Part shown: in pieces, positions 34,441 through 57,510 of the stretch
Numbering within the stretch: the stretch's first letter is position 1
Layout of the letters: every line of letters starts with the position of its first letter
DNA from: Eledone cirrhosa
Lineage: Eukaryota
Length of the DNA stretch: 64,000 nt
Direction: 5' to 3'
Assembly (NCBI GenBank): GCA_964016885.1
Contig: CAXHJY010001022.1
Coordinates: 9,520-73,519 of the forward strand
The notes under the pieces: model-generated
Seen by the model: only the letters and a program-made list of their open reading frames with translations
What the model was told of the DNA's origin: nothing
Databases searched by the model: none
Translations under genes and position numbers: made by a program

Positions 34441-34468
<28 letters not shown>

Positions 34469-34509
34469 GAAAATAAAACAAAGAAGCCTTCAATACATCA
34501 AAAGTCTTT

Positions 34510-34554
34510 ATTAGCCAACAATGTTTCGTCCTATTAAGGACTCATCAGGGCAAT
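34510..34554 (-). ncRNA. Minimal hammerhead, family C inverted arm
   Basis: Reverse complement of 36187-36231. Confidence 0.82.
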
Positions 34555-36186
34555 CAAAACCACAAGAAGTACTATCGGCCAATACAAGCCGAAAACTCCG
34601 AAGAATATGGAGTGTACATACACTAAAGTATTGGAAGATTATGGGTAAAAATATATAATAAAAATCACTAAGGAGGTGGATAACATTTTGAACCATATTA
34701 CAAATATAGTCCAAAGCAAAAAAACTAAAGGTGGTTATATAGAGCAGGAATTATAGTACTATATATAATACAATATAATATAATATAATATACTTGTAAC
34801 AATATTAAAATTAAAATTAAAAGGCACAATATACATATGTATATATGTACGCACAAGTACGCACGTATACATATACATCAATACACATTTCCATCATTAA
34901 CAGCACAAATTAAACCTTATTAAGAGTTTAAATATAAATAAGCATAATAGGAATAAAAATAATAATAATACATATATCTAATATACAGTATAACATGAAG
35001 TAATGAAATGATTAAAAGTAAAACATATAATATATAATAAACTATATAATTATATAATATATAATATAATATAATAGATAATCTCCGATTAATTTACACA
35101 AACAATATAGATGTCACAATAATACTATAATAATAATATAATAACATATAATATATAATGGCATGTAAGTTAACAAATCAATTCATGTAGAGTTACAGAG
35201 TAGAGCAGAAAAAAATATATATTGTACAATACCCAAAATTATGATGGTACAAAAATATAAACATCTTACATGATATATAAAATTTAACATATCATAATGG
35301 TACATAAAATCATCGGTAAGTAATAAGGATCAATAGTACAATAACAACTTCAATATGAAATAAAATAATGAACATAATATAATATATAATTACTTATAAT
35401 TAAAAGGTTGGTAAACAGACACATATGTGAATGAGTGAATAAGGGCCAGACAGAAAATACTATGCACAGTAGTATTAATAAATAAATAAATAAAATCAAA
35501 CGGAAATTAAAAAACAAAAACAAAAGTATTTACTTAGGTCTCACATGCAGTTAAGTAAAAACTTAGGAAAAAACCCAGATAAATGACTAGAAAACCCTAT
35601 TTGATAAATTAATATTGAAAATATTTAATATACCTAATAAGGCAATACAATATTAGCTATGGTTTAAGTAATAAAAATTCCTAAACATTAATATTTCACT
35701 ATAAATATATATATAAAGGAATGAAATATTCTACTATCATTTACATGTTATACTGTATATTAGATATACGTATTATTATTATTTTTATTCCTATTATGCT
35801 TATTTATATTTAAACTCTTAATAAGGTTTAATTTGTGCTGTTAATGATGGAAATGTGTATTGATGTATATGTATATGTGCGTACGTGTGCGTACATATAT
35901 ACATATGTATATTGTGCCTTTTAATTTTAATTTTAATATTGTTACAAATATATTATATTATATTATATTGTATTATATATAGTACTATAATTCCCGCTCT
36001 ATATAACCACCTTTAGTTTTTTTGCTTTGGACTATATTTGTAATATGGTTCAAAATGTTATCCACCTCCTTAGTGATTTTTATTATATATTTTTACCCAT
36101 AATCTTCCAATACTTTAGTGTGTGTACACTCCATATTCTTCGGAGTTTTCGGCTTGTATTGGCTGATAGTACTTCTTGTGGTTTTG

Positions 36187-36231
36187 ATTGCCCTGATGAG
36201 TCCTTAATAGGACGAAACATTGTTGGCTAAT
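36187..36231 (+). ncRNA. Minimal hammerhead, family C 5' pLTR
   Basis: attgcc-CTGATGA-gtcct taat aggac-GAA-acattgt-T-ggctaat. Confidence 0.85.
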
Positions 36232-36418
36232 AAAGACTTTTGATATATTGAAGGCTTCTTTGTTTTATTTTCATAATTCTTCGGCTCTGTTTAATTACAT
36301 TGAGCTATACCTTTTACTGTCATTTCTATAATACGAAGAGGGTGTTTAACTCCAACACGCTCCAGTATTTTAATCCTTGTCACTGCTCCCGATTGGTTGA
36401 GCTTCCGCCTATATACTG

Positions 36419-39110
36419 GTGTTTTTGCCTTTATATATATCTGACAGTATGCTAACAAAGAGTTACCTGCCTTTATCTCTGAAGAATATTCCCACCCCCT
36501 CTAAGAATACTTACGAAAAACCATTGATTGCTAGTGGTAACTCCTTCGTAAAAAGGATTAGATGGCGTGCTTTCCACTATGATATTAATAGGAATAGGAA
36601 GGACCCCAGGAATAGAACAAATTTTAATAACTATGGCTTCAAAACTTATATGAGCCCACCACATAATGTTCTATTAGATAATTGTGAAAGTGACTTACTC
36701 TCTCTTGTCAAAAATATTAAGTATAGGCCAAATAATAGACATAGAAATTATAATAAATTTGATAACTTCCAGTCTAGACTTAAAAATATTGTTAAGGGTT
36801 TTAGTGCGAATAAGTCTATTATTGTCCCGGCGGATAAGACTAAGAATCTATACTCTATGGATTACAGTGCTTACCGTGACTTTCTTTATAAGGAGCTGCA
36901 TAGAAATTATAAAAAGACTACGCTAGATAATTTGAACCATATCAATTGTGAGGGTCTTAAAATAGTCTCGGACCTCGGGCTTGATAAGTACACCCAGCCA
37001 TATTACCCTAGAGAACCGAGATTCACTATTAAGGATCATAAGGTAGACTTCATTAGTAACCCCTCTGTTAGACTCATCTGTCCTTCTAAGTCCGATATAG
37101 CCATAATCAGTAAAAAAATCCTTGACCTTATTATACCAGATGTTAGGGATAAAGTTAATTTTAACCTATGGGGGAACACTAAGGAAGTTATACATTGGTT
37201 CTCTGGGATTAATAAACTTGAATCTAATAAGTTTATCCAGTTCGATATTGATGTCTACTACACATCGATTTCACCCATCCTCCTCAATAAAGCCTTAATG
37301 TTGGCCATGACAGTGTCCAGCCTTACACGATCACAGGTAGATATTATACTAGCAGCCCGTAGAACTATTATTAATTTTGAGGACACATCTTGGACCCGTA
37401 AAAACACGCCCAACAATTTCTACGTTACAATGGGTTCGAGTGATTCGGGCCAGGTAACTGATCTTGTTGGGTTGTTCCTCCTAAATGAACTATATGTTAC
37501 CTTTCCGCACTTTAATGGCGGACTATATCGTGATGATGCATTGTTCGTAATTAACTCTAGCACCAACAATGTAGAACATAATAAGAAGAAGCTTTATAAG
37601 TTTATTTAAAAGCTATAACCTTTCGATCACGATAGATAGAAACGATAGAGCGGTCAACTTTTTAGATGTGACTTTGGACTTGGTCACTAATAGTTTTAAA
37701 CCCTTCTATAAGCCTAATGAAATACTTTCTTATGTTAGTCCGAATTCTAACCACCCCAAATCTATCATAAGCTCTATAATTAAGAGTGTATCTAATAGGA
37801 TTTCCACACTCTCTAAGGACGTAGGAATATTTAATGAACATGCGGAGTACTATAATAATTCCCTAGCTAATTCCGGTTACTCTAGTAAAATACATAATAA
37901 TAATAGTAACCTTAGAAATTCTCCGCTTACTTATAATAATAATAACATAATATCCCATAACATGGCCATGAATGGGAGTAGGAAGCATAATAATCGTAGA
38001 AATTACATAGGTGTATCTGAACCCATCCATAAGTTAACCCACCGGACTCGTAATAGGGAATCAAGTCGAACCCTCTGAGCGCTCACTCATTGGTGATGAT
38101 TTTGCTAGATCTAATTCTAATAATGTTGTTTCTACTGATCCTATTATTGGCCCTAATCCTTTTGATAGGATTCCAGACAGCAGCAGATCTACTAGAGGTA
38201 GAAACATTAAGAGATATAATGGAATTTTGGCTGATTCTAATAATGCGGTTTTAACTAATCCTTGTAATAACCCTATCTTAATAATGGGATATTAGATAAT
38301 GGTAGAGTCGGAAAGGATAAAAATAGAAGGAGACTAAATACTTATTTTAACCCGCCATATAATCAGGAAGTATTAACTAATATCCCTAGGTCTTTCTTTT
38401 CTATCTTAGAGAAACATTTCACCCCTTCTCATAAATACCATAGTATTTTTAATAAAAATGTTATTAAACTTTCATTCTCTACCACCCCTAATATTAGTTC
38501 TCATTTAGCTAGCACTAACAATAGGAAAATTAGGGATGGATACTCCTCTCTACATACTACTAGTCTGAACAGATCTGGAAATGCCTTACCACCAGAGCAG
38601 ACCTTATCTAATAGTAATCCTACGTTTAATGCATCACTACTTCAGCCAATCAATAGCACCCGGAAGTGTAACTGTAGAGTGAGTGCTAACTGCCCTTTAA
38701 ACGGTAACTGCCTCTCTAAGAACATCGTCTATGCTTGCGTAGTTATAACTAATTCCTCTAATAGAACTTATATAGGCTCTACATCTAACACTAGGTTTAA
38801 TTCTCATATCTCTAATTTCAAACATGTTAAGTTTAAGAATTCTATTTCTTTAGCACCCTATATCTGGGATCTTAAGGGGGCTAATATACCATATAGCCTT
38901 AATTGGCGTTTAGATGCACGCTCTAATAACCTTTCTACACATACTAAATTGTGTAATCTCTGTATCCTCGAGACACACTCTATAATGTTCTCTAGTGAAT
39001 CCTTACTTAATAGAAAGTCTGAGATATTCTCTTCTTGCCCCCACGCTATTTCTAATTCTTACTTATATTATAAAACTAAAGGTTCTAGTAGTGTAAATTG
39101 TATCCATTAG
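36419..39110 (+). pseudogene. PLE RT-GIY-YIG ORF with frameshifts/stops
   Basis: ADKT, FIQFDID, MGSSDSGQ, LYRDDA, CPLNGNC, TYIGST, CNLCILE, SCPH. Confidence 0.92.
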
Positions 39111-40780
39111 CTGATATATTCCATTACTTATTTTTTTTAGTTTAGGTTCTTTTTGTTTACCACCATTATTATCATCATTATTATCATTGGTTTTTGACAA
39201 CTTTTTATTCTAGCTCTCATAATCTTTTGGCTACTATACCATATCTATCTTCTTACACATTAAATTTTCACTATTAACACCTTATGAGTATATATCTGAT
39301 TATATATTTGATATTATTTTATTTTATTTCATTTTATTTTATTTTATTTGGATTCTTCTTTGGGTAACCCCTCTCCTCCCCCCCCCCATGCACACATAAA
39401 CTTATTGCCAACCCCTTCAGATATATTATGATTATATTTAATCTCCCCCTCTTTTATGCTCCTTTCTATTATATAATACAGTATATTGATTATGATTTTA
39501 AGCTCCTTTGTATCCTGGATACATTTCTTTTTTTCTGTCCCTATTAGCCTACCATAATTCTGCTTAAGTCAGTTTTTTAGATATCGTTATGTAAATGATA
39601 GTAGAATATTTCATTCCTTTATATATATATTTATAGTGAAATATTAATGTTTAGGAATTTTTATTACTTAAACCATAGCTAATATTGTATTGCCTTATTA
39701 GGTATATTAAATATTTTCAATATTAATTTATCAAATAGGGTTTTCTAGTCATTTATCTGGGGTTTTTCCTAAGTTTTTACTTAACTGCATGTGAGACCTA
39801 AGTAAATACTTTTGTTTTTGTTTTTTAATTTCCGGTTGATTTTATTTATTTATTTATTAATACTACTGTGCATAGTATTTTCTGTCTGGCCCTTATTCAC
39901 TCATTCACATATGTGTCTGTTTACCAACCTTGTAATTATAAGTAATTATATATTATATTATGTTCATTATTTTATTTTATATTGAAGTTGTTATTGTACT
40001 ATTGATCCTTATTACTTACCGATGATTTTATGTACCATTATGATATGTTAAATTTTATATATCATGTAAGATGTTTATATTTTTGTACCATCATAATTTT
40101 GGGTATTGTACAATATATATTTTTTTCTGCTCTACTCTGTAACTCTACATGAATTGATTTGTTAACTTACATGCCATTATATATTATATGTTATTATATT
40201 ATTATTATAGTATTATTGTGACATCTATATTGTTTGTGTAAATTAATCGGAGATTATCTATTATATTATATTATATATTATATAATTATATAGTTTATTA
40301 TATATTATATGTTTTACTTTTAATCATTTCATTACTTCATGTTATACTGTATATTAGATATATGTATTATTATTATTTTTATTCCTATTATGCTTATTTA
40401 TATTTAAACTCTTAATAAGGTTTAATTTGTGCTGGTAATGATGGAAATGTGTATTGATGTATATGTATACGTGCGTACTTGTGCGTACATATATACATAT
40501 GTATATTGTGCCTTTTAATTTTAATTTTAATATTGTTACAAGTATATTATATTATATTATATTGTATTATATATAGTACTATAATTCCTGCTCTATATAA
40601 CCACCTTTAGTTTTTTTGCTTTGGACTATATTTGTAATATGGTTCAAAATGTTATCCACCTCCTTAGTGATTTTTATTATATATTTTTACCCATAATCTT
40701 CCAATACTTTAGTGTATGTACACTCCATATTCTTCGGAGTTTTCGGCTTGTATTGGCCGATAGTACTTCTTGTGGTTTTG

Positions 40781-40825
40781 ATTGCCCTGATGAGTCCTTA
40801 ATAGGACGAAACATTGTTGGCTAAT
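40781..40825 (+). ncRNA. Minimal hammerhead, family C 3' pLTR
   Basis: Identical to 36187-36231. Confidence 0.85.
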
Positions 40826-40968
40826 AAAGACTTTTGATGTATTGAAGGCTTCTTTGTTTTATTTTCATAATTCTTCGGCTCTGTTTAATTACATTGAGCT
40901 ATACCTTTTACTGTCATTTTTATAAAACGAAGAGGGTGTTTAACTCCAACACGCTCCAGTATTTTAAT

Positions 40969-41009
<41 letters not shown>

Positions 41010-47890: not shown

Positions 47891-48019
47891 TACATGGAAC
47901 TCCTTTAACCATCTTTTGAACTTATATTATGTATACTCCAGTCCTACAAACTGTAGAGTGCTTCTTATCCGATATCTGCATTGCTTTATTGTACTACAAT
48001 AAAACTCACCTCCTACATA

Positions 48020-50819
<2,800 letters not shown>

Positions 50820-51172
50820 TTAAACAATTAAGTTAAAAATGTACATCTACATATGCATACTGAAATACTAGTGTGTATATGAATACAAACACGTATACAT
50901 ATGTAGGTGTACCAAGTCTTTCACTGGTCGCTTTACAGTGAGCGGCCCAGCTATTCTGTATGTAAACACACAGACAAACCGGTTTTTAGAGTCACACTGG
51001 TTTTTCGGGGGAACACCTTCCCCCTATTCTCCAGAAAGCCAGACAAGGAATATTGACCTAGTTTCGTTGTTGTTACAACTCATCAGCAATGTTTACCTAT
51101 CTACCGGCCTTTCTGGAGAATTGTAAAAGCACATATCGTTATATGCTTTTTCTATGAAAATTAGTAGTGGGC

Positions 51173-51228
<56 letters not shown>

Positions 51229-51705
51229 AAATAACGAAACGAAATTAAATTTCGTTTCGTTTGTAACTCACTTTTGTATGACTGACGCTTAAACAATTAA
51301 GTTAAAAATGTACATCTACATATGCATACTGAAATACTAGTGTGTATATGAATACACACACGTATACATATGTAGGTGTACCAAGTCTTTCACTGGTCGC
51401 TTTACAGTGAGCGGCCCAGCTATTCTGTATGTAAACACACGGACAAACCGGTTTTTAGAGTCACACTGGTTTTTCGGGGGACACCTTCCCCCTATTCACC
51501 AGAAAGCCAGACAAGGAATATTGAACTAGTTTCGTTGTTGTTACAACTCATCAGCAATATTTACCTATCTACCGGCCTTTCTGGAGAATTGTAAAAGCAC
51601 ATATCGTTATATGCTTTTTCTATGAAAATTAGTAGTGGGCAGACTAATTTGCATAGAGTGTGAGTACGCACCGGTTCAGCGGAGACGATAAAAAACAAAT
51701 AACAT
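50820..51705 (-). repeat. Inverted arm (~2 units) of the 469-bp hammerhead satellite (family 2)
   Basis: Reverse-complement units. HHR cores at 51080-51086 and 51548-51554. Confidence 0.92.
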
Positions 51706-51709
51706 AATA

Positions 51710-54115
51710 ATGTGTGTATTCATATACACACTAGTATTTCAGTATGCATATGTAGATGTACATTTTTAACTTAATTGTTTAAGCGTCAGTCATACAAAAG
51801 TGAGTTACAAACGAAACGAAATTTAATTTCGTTTCGTTATTTGTTTTTTATCGTCTCCGCTGAACCGGTGCGTACTCACACTCTATGCAAATTAGTCTGC
51901 CCACTACTAATTTTCATAGAAAAAGCATATAACGATATGTACTTTTACAATTCTCCAGAAAGGCCGGTAGATAGGTAAATATTGCTGATGAGTTGTAACA
52001 ACAACGAAACTAGGTCAATATTCCTTGTCTGGCTTTCTGGAGAATAGGGGGAAGGTGTTCCCCCGAAAAACCAGTGTGACTCTAAAAACCGGTTTGTCTG
52101 TGTGTTTACATACAGAATAGCTGGGCCGCTCACTGTAAAGCGACCAGTGAAAGACTTGGTACACCTACATATGTATACGTGTGTGTATTCATATACACAC
52201 TAGTATTTCAGTATGCATATGTAGATGTACATTTTTAACTTAATTGTTTAAGCGTCAGTCATACAAAAGTGAGTTACAAACGAAACGAAATTTAATTTCG
52301 TTTCGTTATTTGTTTTTTATCGTCTCCGCTGAACCGGTGCGTACTCACATTCTATGCAAATTAGTCTGCCCACTACTAATTTTCATAGAAAAAGCATATA
52401 ACGATGTGTGCTTTTACAATTCTCCAGAAAGGCCGGTAGATAGGTAAATATTGCTGATGAGTTGTAACAACAACGAAACTAGTTCAATATTCCTTGTCTG
52501 GCTTTCTGGTGAATAGGGGGAAGGTGTTCCCCCGAAAAACCAGTGTGACTCTAAAAACCGGTTTGTCTGTGTGTTTACATACAGAATAGCTGGGCCGCTC
52601 ACTGTAAAGCGACCAGTGAAAGACTTGGTACACCTACATATGTATACGTGTGTGTATTCATATACACACTAGTATTTCAGTATGCATATGTAGATGTACA
52701 TTTTTAACTTAATTGTTTAAGCGTCAGTCATACAAAAGTGAGTTACAAACGAAACGAAATTTAATTTCGTTTCGTTATTTGTTTTTTATCGTCTCCGCTG
52801 AACCGGTGCATACTCACATTCTATTCAAATTAGTCTGCCCACTACTAATTTTCATAGAAAAAGCATATAACGATATGTGCTTTTACAATTCTCCAGAAAG
52901 GCCGGTAGATAGGTAAATATTGCTGATGAGTTGTAACAACAACGAAACTAGTTCAATATTCCTTGTCTGGCTTTCTGGAGAATAGGGCTAAGGTGTTCCC
53001 CCGAAAAAACAGTGTGACTCTAAAAACCGGTTTGTCTGTGTGTTTACATACAGAATAGCTGGGCCGCTCACTGTAAAGCGACCAGTGAAAGACTTGGTAC
53101 ACCTACATATGTATACGTGTGTGTATTCATATACACACTAGTATTTCAGTATGCATATGTAGATGTACATTTTTAACTTAATTGTTTAAGCGTCAGTCAT
53201 ACAAAAGTGAGTTACAAACGAAACGAAATTTAATTTCGTTTCGTTATTTGTTTTTTATCGTCTCCGCTGAACCGGTGCGTACTCACACTCTATGCAAATT
53301 AGTCTGCCCACTACTAATTTTCATAGAAAAAGCATATAACGATATGTGCTTTTACAATTCTCCAGAAAGGCCGGTAGATAGGTAAATATTGCTGATGAGT
53401 TGTAACAACAACGAAACTAGTTCAATATTCCTTGTCTGGCTTTCTGGAGAATAGGGGGAAGGTGTTCCCCCGAAAAACCAATGTGACTCTAAAAACCGGT
53501 TTGTCTGTGTGTTTACATACAGAATAGCTGGGCCGCTCACTGTAAAGCGACCAGTGAAAGACTTGGTACACCTACATATGTATACGTGTGTGTATTCATA
53601 TACACACTAGTATTTCAGTATGCATATGTAGATGTACATTTTTAACTTAATTGTTTAAGCGTCAGTCATACAAAAGTGAGTTACAAACGAAACGAAATTT
53701 AATTTCGTTTCGTTATTTGTTTTTTATCGTCTCCGCTGAACCGGTGCGTACTCACACTCTATGCAAATTAGTCTGCCCACTACTGATTTTCATAGAAAAA
53801 GCATATAACGATATGTGCTTTTACAATTCTCCAGAAAGGCCGGTAGATAGGTAAATATTGCTGATGAGTTGTAACAACAACGAAACTAGTTCAATATTCC
53901 TTGTCTGGCTTTCTGGAGAATAGGGGGAAGGTGTTCCCCCGAAAAACCAGTGTGACTCTAAAAACCGGTTTGTCTGTGTGTTTACATACAGAATAGCTGG
54001 GCCGCTCACTGTAAAGCGACCAGTGAAAGACTTGGTACACCTACATATGTATACGTGTGTGTATTCATATACACACTAGTATTTCAGTATGCATATGTAG
54101 ATGTACATTTTTAAC

Positions 54116-54120
<5 letters not shown>
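51710..54120 (+). repeat. Tandem array of 469-bp hammerhead-containing units (retrozyme-like family 2), ~5.1 units
   Basis: HHR cores at 51985, 52454, 52923, 53392, 53861. First octamer at 51885. Confidence 0.95.
52447..52491 (+). ncRNA. Type I hammerhead ribozyme (representative; also at +469, +938, +1407)
   Basis: aatattg-CTGATGA-gttgt aaca acaac-GAA-actagt-T-caatatt. Stem I is extended by agg/cct and ccagaaag/ctttctgg. Confidence 0.9.
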
Positions 54121-54170
<50 letters not shown>

Positions 54171-54197
54171 ATTATATATAAATATATATATATATAT

Positions 54198-57100
54198 GGG
54201 TATGACATTAAACTACATCCAGTGGCAAGGCTCCAGTTCGGGAGTTCAGGGGATGTGGGGAATGTGGAGTCACCCCTTAGTTGTCATGACTCCCAGGTCT
54301 GCCCTGGCCCGGGGTGGTAGTACCTGTTAGGGCTCCGTTTATGGGTTAAATAACTACCTTATTCGAGTGGCGCCGGTAAGGTATTGTCAGCCATCGAAAA
54401 GAAATATGGAGAGTCGATCTAACAGCACTAGGGTTAGAGCCCCTAATTATACTGTCAAGGACCAGCCTGGTCGTTATGACTCTGCTGGCTTACAGCCACA
54501 GAGAGGGCCAGTGGATGATGGATCAGCTGTCTCTGAGACAAATATAAAGAATGCAGTTTTGTCCTGCAGAAGAGCCATCAAAATGGGCACTTTGAATGTG
54601 AGGACTATTCGAACGCTGGAGAAGAGAGAGGAGTTGGGACATCTGTTCGAAGAGAGTGGTATACAGATACTTGCGATCCAAGAACACAGGATTCTACACG
54701 ATGAGCCCGTGAGGAGTGTGATGATCGGGAGGAAGAGCCAGCTCATCACTACATCGGCATCGAAGAACACAACAAATGCTGCAGTAGGAGGAGTGGGTTT
54801 TGTGTTCAGTGCAAAAACCAATCTGTTGGTGAGGGAAATAATGCCTATCTCCCCGCGAGTGTTGAGGGTGACCTTCAATGGAAACCCAAGACTGACAGTC
54901 ATCTCAGGCTATAGTCCAACCGGGGGGGACAGTGATGTGAATGCCGAGGAGTTACATGAGGCGGTGTGTAGAGCTGTCAACACCACTTAGGCACACAATA
55001 TCCTGCTTGTTTTGGGGGACTTCAATGCACATCTGAGTAAGGAGGGCAGTGAAGATCCTTGCTGGTACTTCCATAACAACACCAACCGAAATGAAAGACT
55101 ACTGAGAGACACCCTGCTGGAGGCGAACTTGATGGCGACCAACCTAAGGTTTAGGAAGAATCTGGGGAAGATGTGGTCCTACATCTCAGATATGCACCTG
55201 TCCATGTCCCAGATTGATTTCATTCTGGTGAGGAAAAAGTGGCGGTATAGTGTTCTGAACACGGAACCATACAGCTATTTCAGTACACTGGGTAGTGACC
55301 ACCGACTTGTTATGAGTGAGGTCCGCGTGAGCTTAAGAAAGAGCAAGGCTCAGCCCCGGAGAACAATCTATGACTGGGGAGCTTTCAAGGAAGATGATAA
55401 GCTACAGGAGATGTTCACAGTGGAAGTGAGAAACAGGTTTAGTGCTCTGTGTGGAGAGTCAGAGGAGAGAGAGATTGGATGGACTGAGGAGAGTGTGACG
55501 AGGAGGTACGGGCACTTCACGAATGCAGTGGCGAAAGCAAGTGAAACCCTGGTGCCGAGGAAAAAGAACAAAGGGAAGCACGTCAGCTCTGCAAACCCAA
55601 AAGTGTGTGCAGCCAGAGAACACCTGAAAGCTGCCAGGGGCCAATTCTATGCTGATCCTACGGAGGAGAGGATGGAAACTGTGGAGGTGATGGGGGAAGA
55701 GCTCTGTACCGCTTACACTGAGATCAGAGATGAGGCACTGATAGAGAAGCTCAGAAGTGTGGAGAGAGCGGTTGACAGATCTGGATGTAAGGAGAGCTGG
55801 ATGATCATCAACGAGATCACAGGGAGGAAGAAAAGGTGTTCGAGTCAGATCCAGGGAACGGGACCCGAGGATAGGAAGAGGAAATAGCTAGACCATTTTA
55901 GGACCCTACTAGGAGAGCCACCCTCCACAGCCCAGAGCATTGGGGAGATCAGGCGGCTGTTTGAGGAACTGGATGTTGAGACAGAGCACTTCACCAGAGA
56001 GGAGCTTCAGAGAGCCAAGAAGAAGATCAAGGAGGGCAAGGCTCATGGAGAGGATGGAGTGGCATCAGATGTGATGAAGAGGTGTGATTTTGATGATATC
56101 ATCCTGGGGTTCTGTAACGGGGCACTGGAGAAAGGAGTTGCCCCGAATCAGTGGAGGATCAGTAACATCGTCCCAGTGCCAAAGAAGGGAGATCTCTCTA
56201 ACACCAAAAACTACCGGGGGATCTCACTGACGTCACTTGTGGCAAAGACCCTCAACAGGATGATTCTTAACAGGATCCAGCCTGAGATGGAGAAGAAGCT
56301 CAGGGACAACCAGAACGGCTTCAGAGAGGGTAGATCAACCACCAGTCACATCCTGATGCTGAGGAGGATATTAGAGGGAGCTAGAGCAAAGTGCCTTCCT
56401 GCGGTCATGGTTTTCATTGACTTTAGGAAGGCCTTTAATTCTGTGGACCGTTACTGTCTGATGAAGATGTTACAGGCTTATGGAATCCCCAAGAAGATAG
56501 TGGACCTAATATCACTGCTCTACACCAACACCAAAGCCCAAGTCATTACAGCTGATAGGATGACAGAGTTCTTTGAGATACTGGCTGGATTGCTCCAAGG
56601 AGATGCATTGGCTCCCTACCTTTTTATCATTGTAGTGGACTATTGTATGCGCCTTGCACTGGAGAAACACCAGGACTCTGGCTTTACTGTAGCACCGGCT
56701 CAGAACAGGAGAGTTAGGGCGAAAAAGGTATCGGATGCTGAATTTGCCGACGACATAGTTTTGGTGACAAATACAGAGAAGGAGGCAGAGGATTTGATGC
56801 GGGAGGATGAGACTGTGTCGATGAGTGTGGGGCTGAGAATGAATGAGACAAAAACAAAATATCTGGTAGAGAATGTTGAGAAGCCAGAGGGGATCACTAC
56901 TGTAGGCGGGAAGCCGCTGGAATTGGTTGAGGACTTCCTGTATTTGGGAGCAAAGATTGGGAATACGGAAGATGATGTGGTTGAGAGGAAGAGCAAGGCC
57001 AGGGCGGCGTGTCACAGCTTGAGATCGGTGTGGAAGTCGGACCTTCGTAGAGACCTGAAAATCCGCCTCTTCATTGCTGTAGTGGAGTCTGTGCTGCTGT

Positions 57101-57510
57101 ATGGGTCTGAGACTTGGACACTGACCAAGACACTCACTCAGATGGTGGATGGGTGCTACACGAGAATGCTGAGGATGGCTCTGAACATTAATCAGTATAC
57201 ACTGAGGATGAAAAACTCAGAGCTGTATGGGAGCATCCCAAAAGTCAGCTCAAAAGTGACACAGAGGAGACTGAGGTTGGCTGGACATGCACACCGACAT
57301 CCAGAGTTGAGATTGCACTCAGTGCTCCTTTGGGAGCCCCTACATGGACACACTAGAAGAGGACGACCAAGGTTAACATATGTTGATGCCCTAAGGACAG
57401 ACACTGGTCTGTTGGAGATGCAGGATATGGCAGCGATAATGAGGGACAGAGACCGCTGGAGAGAAATCGTCCATGGATCTCGGGAATTTTACCCGCCTTA
57501 GATAGATTAG

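What the first reader, a model, noticed from the sequence alone, without database searches (positions are those of the whole stretch)
50820..54120. 469-bp hammerhead satellite: a candidate young retrozyme/circRNA array
Seen: about seven near-identical non-coding units, each with a type I HHR (aatattg-CUGAUGA-guugu/acaac-GAA-ACUAGU-U-caauauu). Stem I extends a long way (agg/cct, uucuccagaaag/cuuucuggagaa), and each unit has many other hairpins. Five copies have an intact core; two (51080, 51985) read ACUAGG. Known: tandem HHR repeats such as newt satellite 2, Schistosoma Sm-alpha and metazoan non-LTR retrozymes give monomeric and circular RNAs, and palindromic stem III implies dimeric cleavage. 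Inference: this array yields 469-nt self-cleaved or circular RNAs. I cannot tell whether the family has been described.
Basis: partly seen in the sequence, partly recalled or inferred. Interest (0 to 1): 0.9.

Follow-up and report, generated by a model that had tools for sequence, protein, structure and literature searches.

The report
Penelope-driven hammerhead retrozyme, two-start insertions
This is one of thousands of scattered insertions of a small non-coding jumping element with a ribozyme-shaped motif; their ends match those of Penelope-type transposons in the same genome, so it likely spreads by borrowing a Penelope enzyme that would copy a circular RNA.

Summary
The hammerhead array is real: seven type I motifs, five with an intact core, predicted cut after 52484. 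It is not a satellite. It is one insertion of a young, dispersed family with about 9,500 exact ribozyme cores and about 2,300 or more insertions; a related 442-bp family lies in the same window.

Each insertion is two head-to-head arms in (TA)n whose 3' ends fall at two fixed internal sites, A and B, about 70 nt apart. In 62 of 68 arm pairs one arm uses A and the other B; the window does too. Informative sites show duplications of about 11-12 bp. This is the two-start "tail" signature reported as unique to Penelope-like elements (PLEs), and intact Neptune-type PLEs in this genome follow the same rule.

Units within an insertion share locus-specific variants, and brand-new arrays reach 26 near-identical units, which favours rolling-circle copying of one monomer. 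Cleavage, expression, circularity and the exact partner PLE are untested. Verdict: a new member of the non-LTR retrozymes, with unusually direct insertion-site evidence for mobilisation by PLEs.

The parts
51711..54121 (+). Long arm, 5.1 units; 5' end at unit position 165, 3' end at fixed site A (position 230 after the ribozyme cut), abutting (TA)n
51223..51703 (-). Inverted arm, about 1.0 unit; 3' end at fixed site B (position about 305), abutting (TA)23
   Evidence: (L026)
51704..51710 (.). Head-to-head junction, 7 extra bases between the two 5' ends
50820..51176 (-). Extra piece (unit 348 through the cut to site A, 236) carrying the locus-specific G61 and a dead ribozyme; origin unexplained
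51177..51222 (.). (TA)23 between the B arm and the extra piece, in place of about 42 nt of unit
48017..50819 (.). Left (TA)n target tract
54122..54197 (.). Right (TA)n target tract
52447..52491 (+). Type I hammerhead, intact core: stem I 7 bp, stem II 5 bp, stem III palindrome ACUAGU, predicted cut after GUU at 52484. Further intact copies: CUGAUGA at 52923, 53392, 53861 (+) and 51554 (-)
51978..52022 (+). Hammerhead with U16.1 changed to G (52014), predicted inactive; the same change is in the minus copy at 51086
52246..52317 (+). 'Tail' between sites A and B (one per unit), with a 29-nt palindromic hairpin at 52279-52307
52351..52389 (+). Stem just 3' of site B, among the blocks best conserved with the 442-bp family; inferred candidate protein-binding element
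   Evidence: role inferred from PMC11167929
14263..16860 (+). Sister 442-bp retrozyme insertion with the same B-arm/A-arm layout (another copy at 1-410)
7573..11880 (-). Neptune-type PLE ('PLE2'), ORF frameshifted here; family has intact 784-codon copies; candidate source of the enzyme
34467..40971 (+). Second Neptune-type PLE ('PLE1'), ORF broken, hammerhead in its pLTR, same inverted two-end layout in (TA)n

Best explanation
This is one insertion of a dispersed, non-coding tandem element with a type I hammerhead motif, laid down as two head-to-head arms in a (TA)n tract, and it is likely a non-autonomous Penelope-like retroelement (non-LTR retrozyme). Step 1 (inferred): tandem copies are transcribed, cut at the hammerhead through a dimeric stem III, and ligated into a circle of about 468 nt. 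Step 2 (inferred from duplications at a few sites): a Neptune-type RT/GIY-YIG protein nicks both strands of AT-rich DNA about 11-12 nt apart. Step 3 (ends shown, priming inferred): each free 3' end primes reverse transcription inside the RNA, one at site A and the other at site B, about 70 nt apart. Step 4 (inferred): the enzyme runs around the template for 0.1 to about 18 units per arm. Step 5 (junction overlaps shown, repair inferred): the two cDNA ends join head to head, often at short overlaps, and are filled in. Some arrays then expand further in place.
For: Dispersal: 5,217 exact 29-nt cores plus 4,314 matches to a pattern that excludes that stem II, 99 of the first 100 listed being a sister variant; controls 0. 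B-end-plus-TA sites number 1,154 on the forward strand alone. Ends: 162 of 169 arm 3' ends lie at A (229-237) or B (300-306), and 145 of those 162 abut TA-rich DNA. Of 68 head-to-head pairs 62 are A+B, 0 B+B, 5 have one odd end, and the single A+A is this window merged across its TA break, really B+A. The 442-bp family has A+B in 15 of 15 two-arm loci among 25. PLE2 has A+B in 28 of 40 loci picked by their B end, counted by eye. Clear duplications of about 11-12 bp at L160, L135, C18, L007; 18 of 62 pairs pass the test against a shuffled mean of 8.9, maximum 14. Junction overlap in 40 of 68. Template: 143 of 162 arms run through the cut site and 5' ends are not enriched there, 4 of 136 against 5.8 expected. 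52 of 54 units from four arrays on three contigs are identical. Locus-fixed variants are shared by both arms: T133C is in 4 of 4 units of L016 and elsewhere only in 3 lone units; G61 with an extra T is seen only in this window. Ribozyme: 0 of 88 subfamily-variable positions fall in the 11 core positions, and a compensatory stem II change is in 32 of 96 units; 6 of 149 pairs have double changes. Literature: two internal start sites make the PLE-unique tail and both DNA strands are extended (PMC11167929).
Against: No cleavage, transcript or circle was observed. Zero of 88 in the core is weak alone (about 2 expected), and many loci were picked by an intact-core pattern. No PLE sharing sequence with the unit was found, so the partner is unnamed. 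One A+A pair occurs among 45 further stretches (L209) and one B+B pair in PLE2 (L281). Periodic variants confined to one arm show expansion after insertion, so array length is not all from reverse transcription. Some variants sit in only part of an array yet in both arms (window A26T and the dead-core change), which a single monomer template does not explain. 16 shared changes break predicted pairs, against 4 compensatory and 24 one-sided. In the Anolis PLE system hammerhead cleavage was not needed for insertion in vitro, and 8 of 9 Xenopus retrozyme dimers did not cleave. GUU is recalled as a slower triplet than GUC.
Confidence: 0.72

Rival explanations
1. Same Penelope-driven insertion, but the template is an uncleaved linear multimer read through an existing array; the hammerhead is slow or acts elsewhere and no circle is needed.
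For: Unprocessed RNA was the dominant substrate for the Anolis PLE in vitro. Arrays are born homogeneous, so their read-through RNA would be too. Long possible source arrays exist. Variants shared by part of an array across arms.
Against: No source array long enough carries the window's or L016's variants in this assembly, though sources may be lost or polymorphic. 5' ends do not pile up at the cut site. The core and stem II pairing are kept across subfamilies and in the 442-bp family.
Confidence: 0.2
2. The unit is the pseudo-LTR of a coding PLE, and the arrays are truncated copies or local amplifications of it.
For: Xenopus retrozymes resemble pLTRs (10.64898/2026.07.22.740005). The first look found 65,877 candidates for PLE-like RT, of which 74 were scored.
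Against: No arm continued into a PLE through unit-like sequence in 143 stretches. The stem motif with another loop has 4 hits, all decayed 442-family copies. None of 20 loci with other ACUAGU-type motifs showed a matching PLE; one had an adjacent PLE ORF. The 469 and 442 units align end to end.
Confidence: 0.05
3. A DNA-level satellite or foldback element spread by unequal crossover or a DNA transposase; the ribozyme fold is incidental.
For: The arms form inverted repeats, TA targets are typical of some DNA transposons (recalled), and local higher-order expansion occurs.
Against: The two ends differ (A versus B) and 5' ends vary freely, as for cDNA truncation. Duplications are about 11-12 bp where visible. 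Coding PLEs have the same layout.
Confidence: 0.03

Closest known systems
Metazoan non-LTR retrozymes (Cervera and de la Pena 2020, PMC7229834; mussel, coral, axolotl)
   Same: Non-coding tandem units with one type I hammerhead each, GC below 45-50%, highly self-paired, thousands of copies, target duplications longer than 4 bp, co-occurring with PLEs.
   Different: Unit about 468 nt against 170-400 nt. Inverted arms and two fixed ends are not mentioned in its main text ('inverted' 0 hits; supplement unreadable). Expression and cleavage are shown there, not here.
Vertebrate retrozymes as non-autonomous PLE sequences (Li, Clavereau, Pollet 2026, bioRxiv 10.64898/2026.07.22.740005)
   Same: Same conclusion on PLE dependence; unit size within their 51-972 bp range.
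   Different: Their evidence is co-occurrence and pLTR homology, and they propose local amplification into tandems. Here no homologous pLTR was found, the evidence is the insertion ends, and long arrays appear in new insertions. 'tail' has 0 hits in their main text.
Penelope-like elements, EN+ clades (Frangieh 2024, PMC11167929; Craig 2021, 10.1101/2021.04.23.441226)
   Same: Partial tandems, inverted 5'-truncated copy, tail on one end, AT-rich target, two internal RT start sites, hammerhead upstream of them.
   Different: No ORF. Tail about 70 nt against 30-40. In vitro no strand preference between start sites was seen; here one arm uses A and the other B almost without exception.
Newt satellite 2 and schistosome Sm-alpha
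   Same: Tandem hammerhead repeats; dimer-dependent cleavage is reported for newt and PLE hammerheads with short stem III (PMC6765202 passages).
   Different: No sequence comparison made here. This family is dispersed in separate short to long insertions.

Membership tests
Type I hammerhead ribozyme | Core CUGANGA...GAAA...UH with stems I and II | tested here: met
   5 of 7 copies intact; HH9 E 1.6e-7 but below gathering score; stem probabilities 0.66-0.99
Type I hammerhead ribozyme | Stem III formed (here only between two copies) | tested here: inconclusive
   No loop for a monomer; ACUAGU self-duplex -4.8 kcal/mol; kept in 40,221 motifs
Type I hammerhead ribozyme | Self-cleavage | not testable with these tools
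   needs in vitro transcription
Non-LTR retrozyme | Non-coding tandem units, one hammerhead each, no LTR | tested here: met
   No ORF of 120 aa or more inside the array. PBS and PPT were not searched for.
Non-LTR retrozyme | Dispersed, high copy number, duplications longer than 4 bp | tested here: met
Non-LTR retrozyme | Expressed as linear and circular monomer RNA | not testable with these tools
   No raw RNA reads were available to lay; only indirect genomic signs
Penelope-like element (non-autonomous) | Two fixed internal 3' ends giving a tail on one end | tested here: met
   162 of 169 ends; 62 of 68 pairs A+B
Penelope-like element (non-autonomous) | Partial tandems with an inverted 5'-truncated copy in AT-rich targets | tested here: met
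Penelope-like element (non-autonomous) | Sequence homology to the pLTR of an autonomous partner | tested here: inconclusive
   None to window PLE1 or PLE2 or by motif; only three of many PLE families were examined
Penelope-like element (autonomous) | ORF with RT and GIY-YIG | tested here: not met
   not filed as autonomous
Satellite DNA | Few long head-to-tail arrays without fixed ends | tested here: not met
   Median arm 600-680 bp, fixed ends, about 2,300 or more sites

The most novel reading that the evidence does not exclude
Every insertion is a snapshot of a Penelope protein dimer that primes both nicked DNA strands on a circular RNA, one subunit always at site A and the other at site B, and rolls for up to about 12 kb in one event. 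The 468-nt circle would be a minimal natural substrate that explains PLE tails, inversions and partial tandems, and shows that ribozyme 'satellites' are born long.
Probability: 0.45. Interest if true: 0.78.

Novelty: new member of a known kind. Interest (0 to 1): 0.55.

Why it matters
How animal retrozymes move has rested on co-occurrence and pLTR likeness; a 2020 review says their repeats show no motif that points to the partner (PMC7761336 passage). Here the insertion ends carry the PLE signature in thousands of copies, beside intact Neptune-type ORFs. The near-strict one-A-one-B rule, the staggered duplication and the long identical arrays constrain PLE integration, which is still poorly understood, and give a 468-nt RNA with mapped start sites for a direct assay. 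About 40,000 such hammerhead motifs lie in this genome.

Tried and rejected
1) Retrozyme-PLE fusions as proof of a shared enzyme. Four were found: L060, L161, L221, L283. Two have outer ends A+B, two B+B, and three join 46-140 nt short of the PLE's own A end, as expected if the retrozyme inserted into the TA tract beside an older PLE with a small deletion. Not counted as evidence. L223 is a nested insertion with TA between.

2) RNA runs: no RNA holder listed. The four runs laid were contigs of unknown kind; they cover the unit in two other coded organisms with hairpin-preserving changes and no listed change in the core, but say nothing on expression.

3) The variant of the 20-unit identical array was not private: 69 matches at 7 loci. 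G25T and A55C recur at other loci, one of them in both arms each, so they are weaker tests than T133C.

4) A third family or PLE with the shared stem or the ACUAGU hammerhead: none found.

5) Pfam found no family for the intact PLE2 ORF and only GIY-YIG, just below cut-off, for the window copy. 'Neptune-type' rests on motifs read by eye (YRDD, CxC..CxxxxxC linker, C-terminal GIY-YIG) against the description; no tree was built.

6) Rfam miRNA matches are far below cut-off. Duplications could not be read for PLE2, whose flanks were pure TA.

7) A G-U versus A-C strand bias among stem changes was weak. Earlier-findings look-ups were empty.

Full report
OBSERVATION. The array is as described, with a more complex layout. 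Five head-to-tail units of 469 bp run 51711-54121 on the plus strand. A minus arm runs 51703-51223, then (TA)23, then a further minus piece 51176-50820. Both outer ends abut (TA)n. All seven hammerheads match Rfam HH9 below its gathering score. Five have an intact core and two have U16.1 changed to G. Stem I has 7 bp and stem II 5 bp; stem III is the loopless palindrome ACUAGU, so it can form only between two copies. The predicted cut follows 52484. The register is supported by a subfamily with C at that position: GUU 70, GUC 25, GUG 1 of 96 units.

A DISPERSED YOUNG FAMILY. The 3.0-Gb genome holds 5,217 exact copies of the 29-nt core. A pattern that excludes this stem II gives 4,314 more; 99 of the first 100 listed are a sister variant with a compensatory stem II pair. 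Reversed-pattern controls are 0. Exact B ends followed by TA number 1,154 forward and 1,333 reverse, the reverse count being inflated by overlapping matches, so about 2,300 insertions is a floor; A ends give 1,089 forward. Subfamilies differ by up to 13%. A 442-bp family in the same window aligns over the whole unit, with the same core and different stems. All motifs of this type total 40,221. The host is probably a cephalopod; this is recalled from a flanking SINE and was not tested.

THE INSERTION SIGNATURE. I mapped arms in 98 stretches, chosen by best similarity, by genome order of core matches, or by a shared variant. Of 169 arms with a visible end, 70 end at site A (229-237 nt after the cut), 92 at site B (300-306) and 7 elsewhere; 145 of the 162 abut TA-rich DNA. 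Of 68 head-to-head pairs, 62 are A+B, none B+B, and five have one odd end. The one A+A is this window merged across its TA break; its inner arm ends at B. In 45 further stretches, 40 picked because an end seemed to lack a partner, I saw one true A+A (L209). The 5' ends are spread over the unit, with an excess near the palindromic hairpin. Arms overlap at the junction in 40 of 68 pairs, are blunt in 5 and have inserts in 23. Where flanks are informative, 11-12 bp are duplicated (L160, L135, C18, L007; about 8 at L122); 18 of 62 pairs pass against 8.9 in shuffles, so part of that count is chance. Impure flanks beside brand-new arrays suggest that the TA tract was there first. The 442-bp family shows A+B in 15 of 15 two-arm loci among 25.

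LINK TO PENELOPE-LIKE ELEMENTS. Frangieh et al. (PMC11167929; I read the abstract, main text and start of methods) showed that a PLE protein nicks and extends both strands of AT-rich DNA and starts cDNA at two adjacent internal RNA sites, which makes the genomic tail unique to PLEs. Craig et al. (10.1101/2021.04.23.441226; passages) describe the inverted 5'-truncated copy and the one-sided tail. Two Neptune-type PLEs lie in this window. PLE2 has many intact copies of about 784 codons at 98-99% identity, 484 exact B ends, sites about 150 nt apart and A+B in 28 of 40 loci, with one B+B. PLE1 shows the same two ends. The retrozyme shares no detectable sequence with either, and four retrozyme-PLE fusions are as well explained by adjacent insertion with deletion. 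The class of partner is therefore well supported and the family is not identified.

TEMPLATE. Sites A and B lie 230-302 nt from the 5' end of a cut monomer, yet 143 of 162 arms extend past the cut, and only 4 of 136 5' ends lie within 10 nt of it, against 5.8 expected. The template must be a circle, an uncut multimer, or be re-used by jumping. For a single repeated monomer: many loci carry variants fixed in all units of both arms; T133C is in 4 of 4 units of L016 and elsewhere only in 3 lone units; the window's G61 occurs at two other loci, which lack its extra T; and 52 of 54 units from four arrays of up to 26 units are identical (the middle of that output was cut, these rows were visible). 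Against: source arrays may be missing from this assembly; three long arrays show periodic variants in one arm, which means later duplication; and the window has variants shared by only some units across arms. I put the circle at about 0.65-0.7.

SELECTION ON THE RIBOZYME. One unit from each of 95 of 138 stretches, plus a window unit, was aligned. None of 88 positions with a shared second letter is in the 11 core positions (about 2 expected). The shared changes within the motif are a compensatory stem II pair (32 of 96), a loop change and U17/C17. Across the fold, 4 shared changes are compensatory, 24 keep a pair one-sidedly and 16 break one. RNAalifold on 16 diverse units gives 6 of 149 pairs with double changes. 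Many loci were chosen by intact-core patterns, which biases these figures. Two cautions from print: cleavage was not needed for PLE insertion in vitro, and 8 of 9 Xenopus dimers did not cleave.

WHAT IS KNOWN. Non-LTR retrozymes, their circular RNAs and a proposed PLE partner are described in PMC7229834 (parts 2 and 4 of 6, section 14 and passages). A 2026 preprint argues for PLE origin from homology (10.64898/2026.07.22.740005; parts 1-3 of 5 and a term search). I also saw passages of PMC6765202 and PMC7761336. Eight searches listed no report of this family or of paired fixed ends in retrozymes; other papers were seen as listings only. The supplement of PMC7229834 could not be read, bioRxiv supplements are closed, and Dfam and Repbase were not available, so this family may already be catalogued.

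VERDICT. It works like a non-autonomous PLE and is filed as a new member of the non-LTR retrozymes, with expression and cleavage untested. The value lies in the end signature and in the assay it makes possible. Interest 0.55.

Noticed in passing
window 14263-16860 and 1-410: Sister 442-bp retrozyme family (GUA triplet, U-U at the base of stem II, same ACUAGU), more numerous than the 469 family, with ends at about 229 and 286; the window copy is interrupted by a SINE-like insert near 16113-16305.
   Followed up: partly
window 7573-11880 (-): Neptune-type PLE2 with a frameshift here; its pLTR has a CUGAGGA motif but no compact hammerhead that I could recognise. The family is young, with intact ORFs elsewhere.
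   Followed up: partly
window 34467-40971; fragment near 17078-17300: Neptune-type PLE1 with a long AT-rich 3' region, a hammerhead with GUU triplet in each pLTR, an inverted 5' arm and a broken ORF.
   Followed up: partly
window 54331-57501 (+): Non-LTR retrotransposon with APE endonuclease and RT in three frames separated by stops, right beside the array.
   Followed up: no
window 50820-51222: The extra minus piece has the locus-specific variant and sits almost in register, with (TA)23 in place of about 42 nt; neither an independent insertion nor a simple duplication explains it.
   Followed up: partly
L120 (unit C744+1): A unit of a different subfamily is joined directly to ten units of the youngest subfamily, a possible template switch between retrozyme RNAs.
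   Followed up: no
L111:7211-7773: Insertion flanked by (CAT)n rather than (TA)n; L122 and L160 are in non-repetitive AT-rich sites.
   Followed up: partly
L214: Two insertions fused tail to tail at the palindromic hairpin near site B.
   Followed up: no
L305-L321: Dozens of single, diverse CUGAUGA...GAAACUAGU motifs outside both families (110 matches against 4 in the control, many of them decayed family copies); some may be old hammerheads.
   Followed up: partly
window 52351-52389: The conserved stem 3' of site B contains an octamer-like ATGCAAAT (motif recalled from snRNA promoters); it is changed in the youngest subfamily, so a promoter role is doubtful.
   Followed up: no
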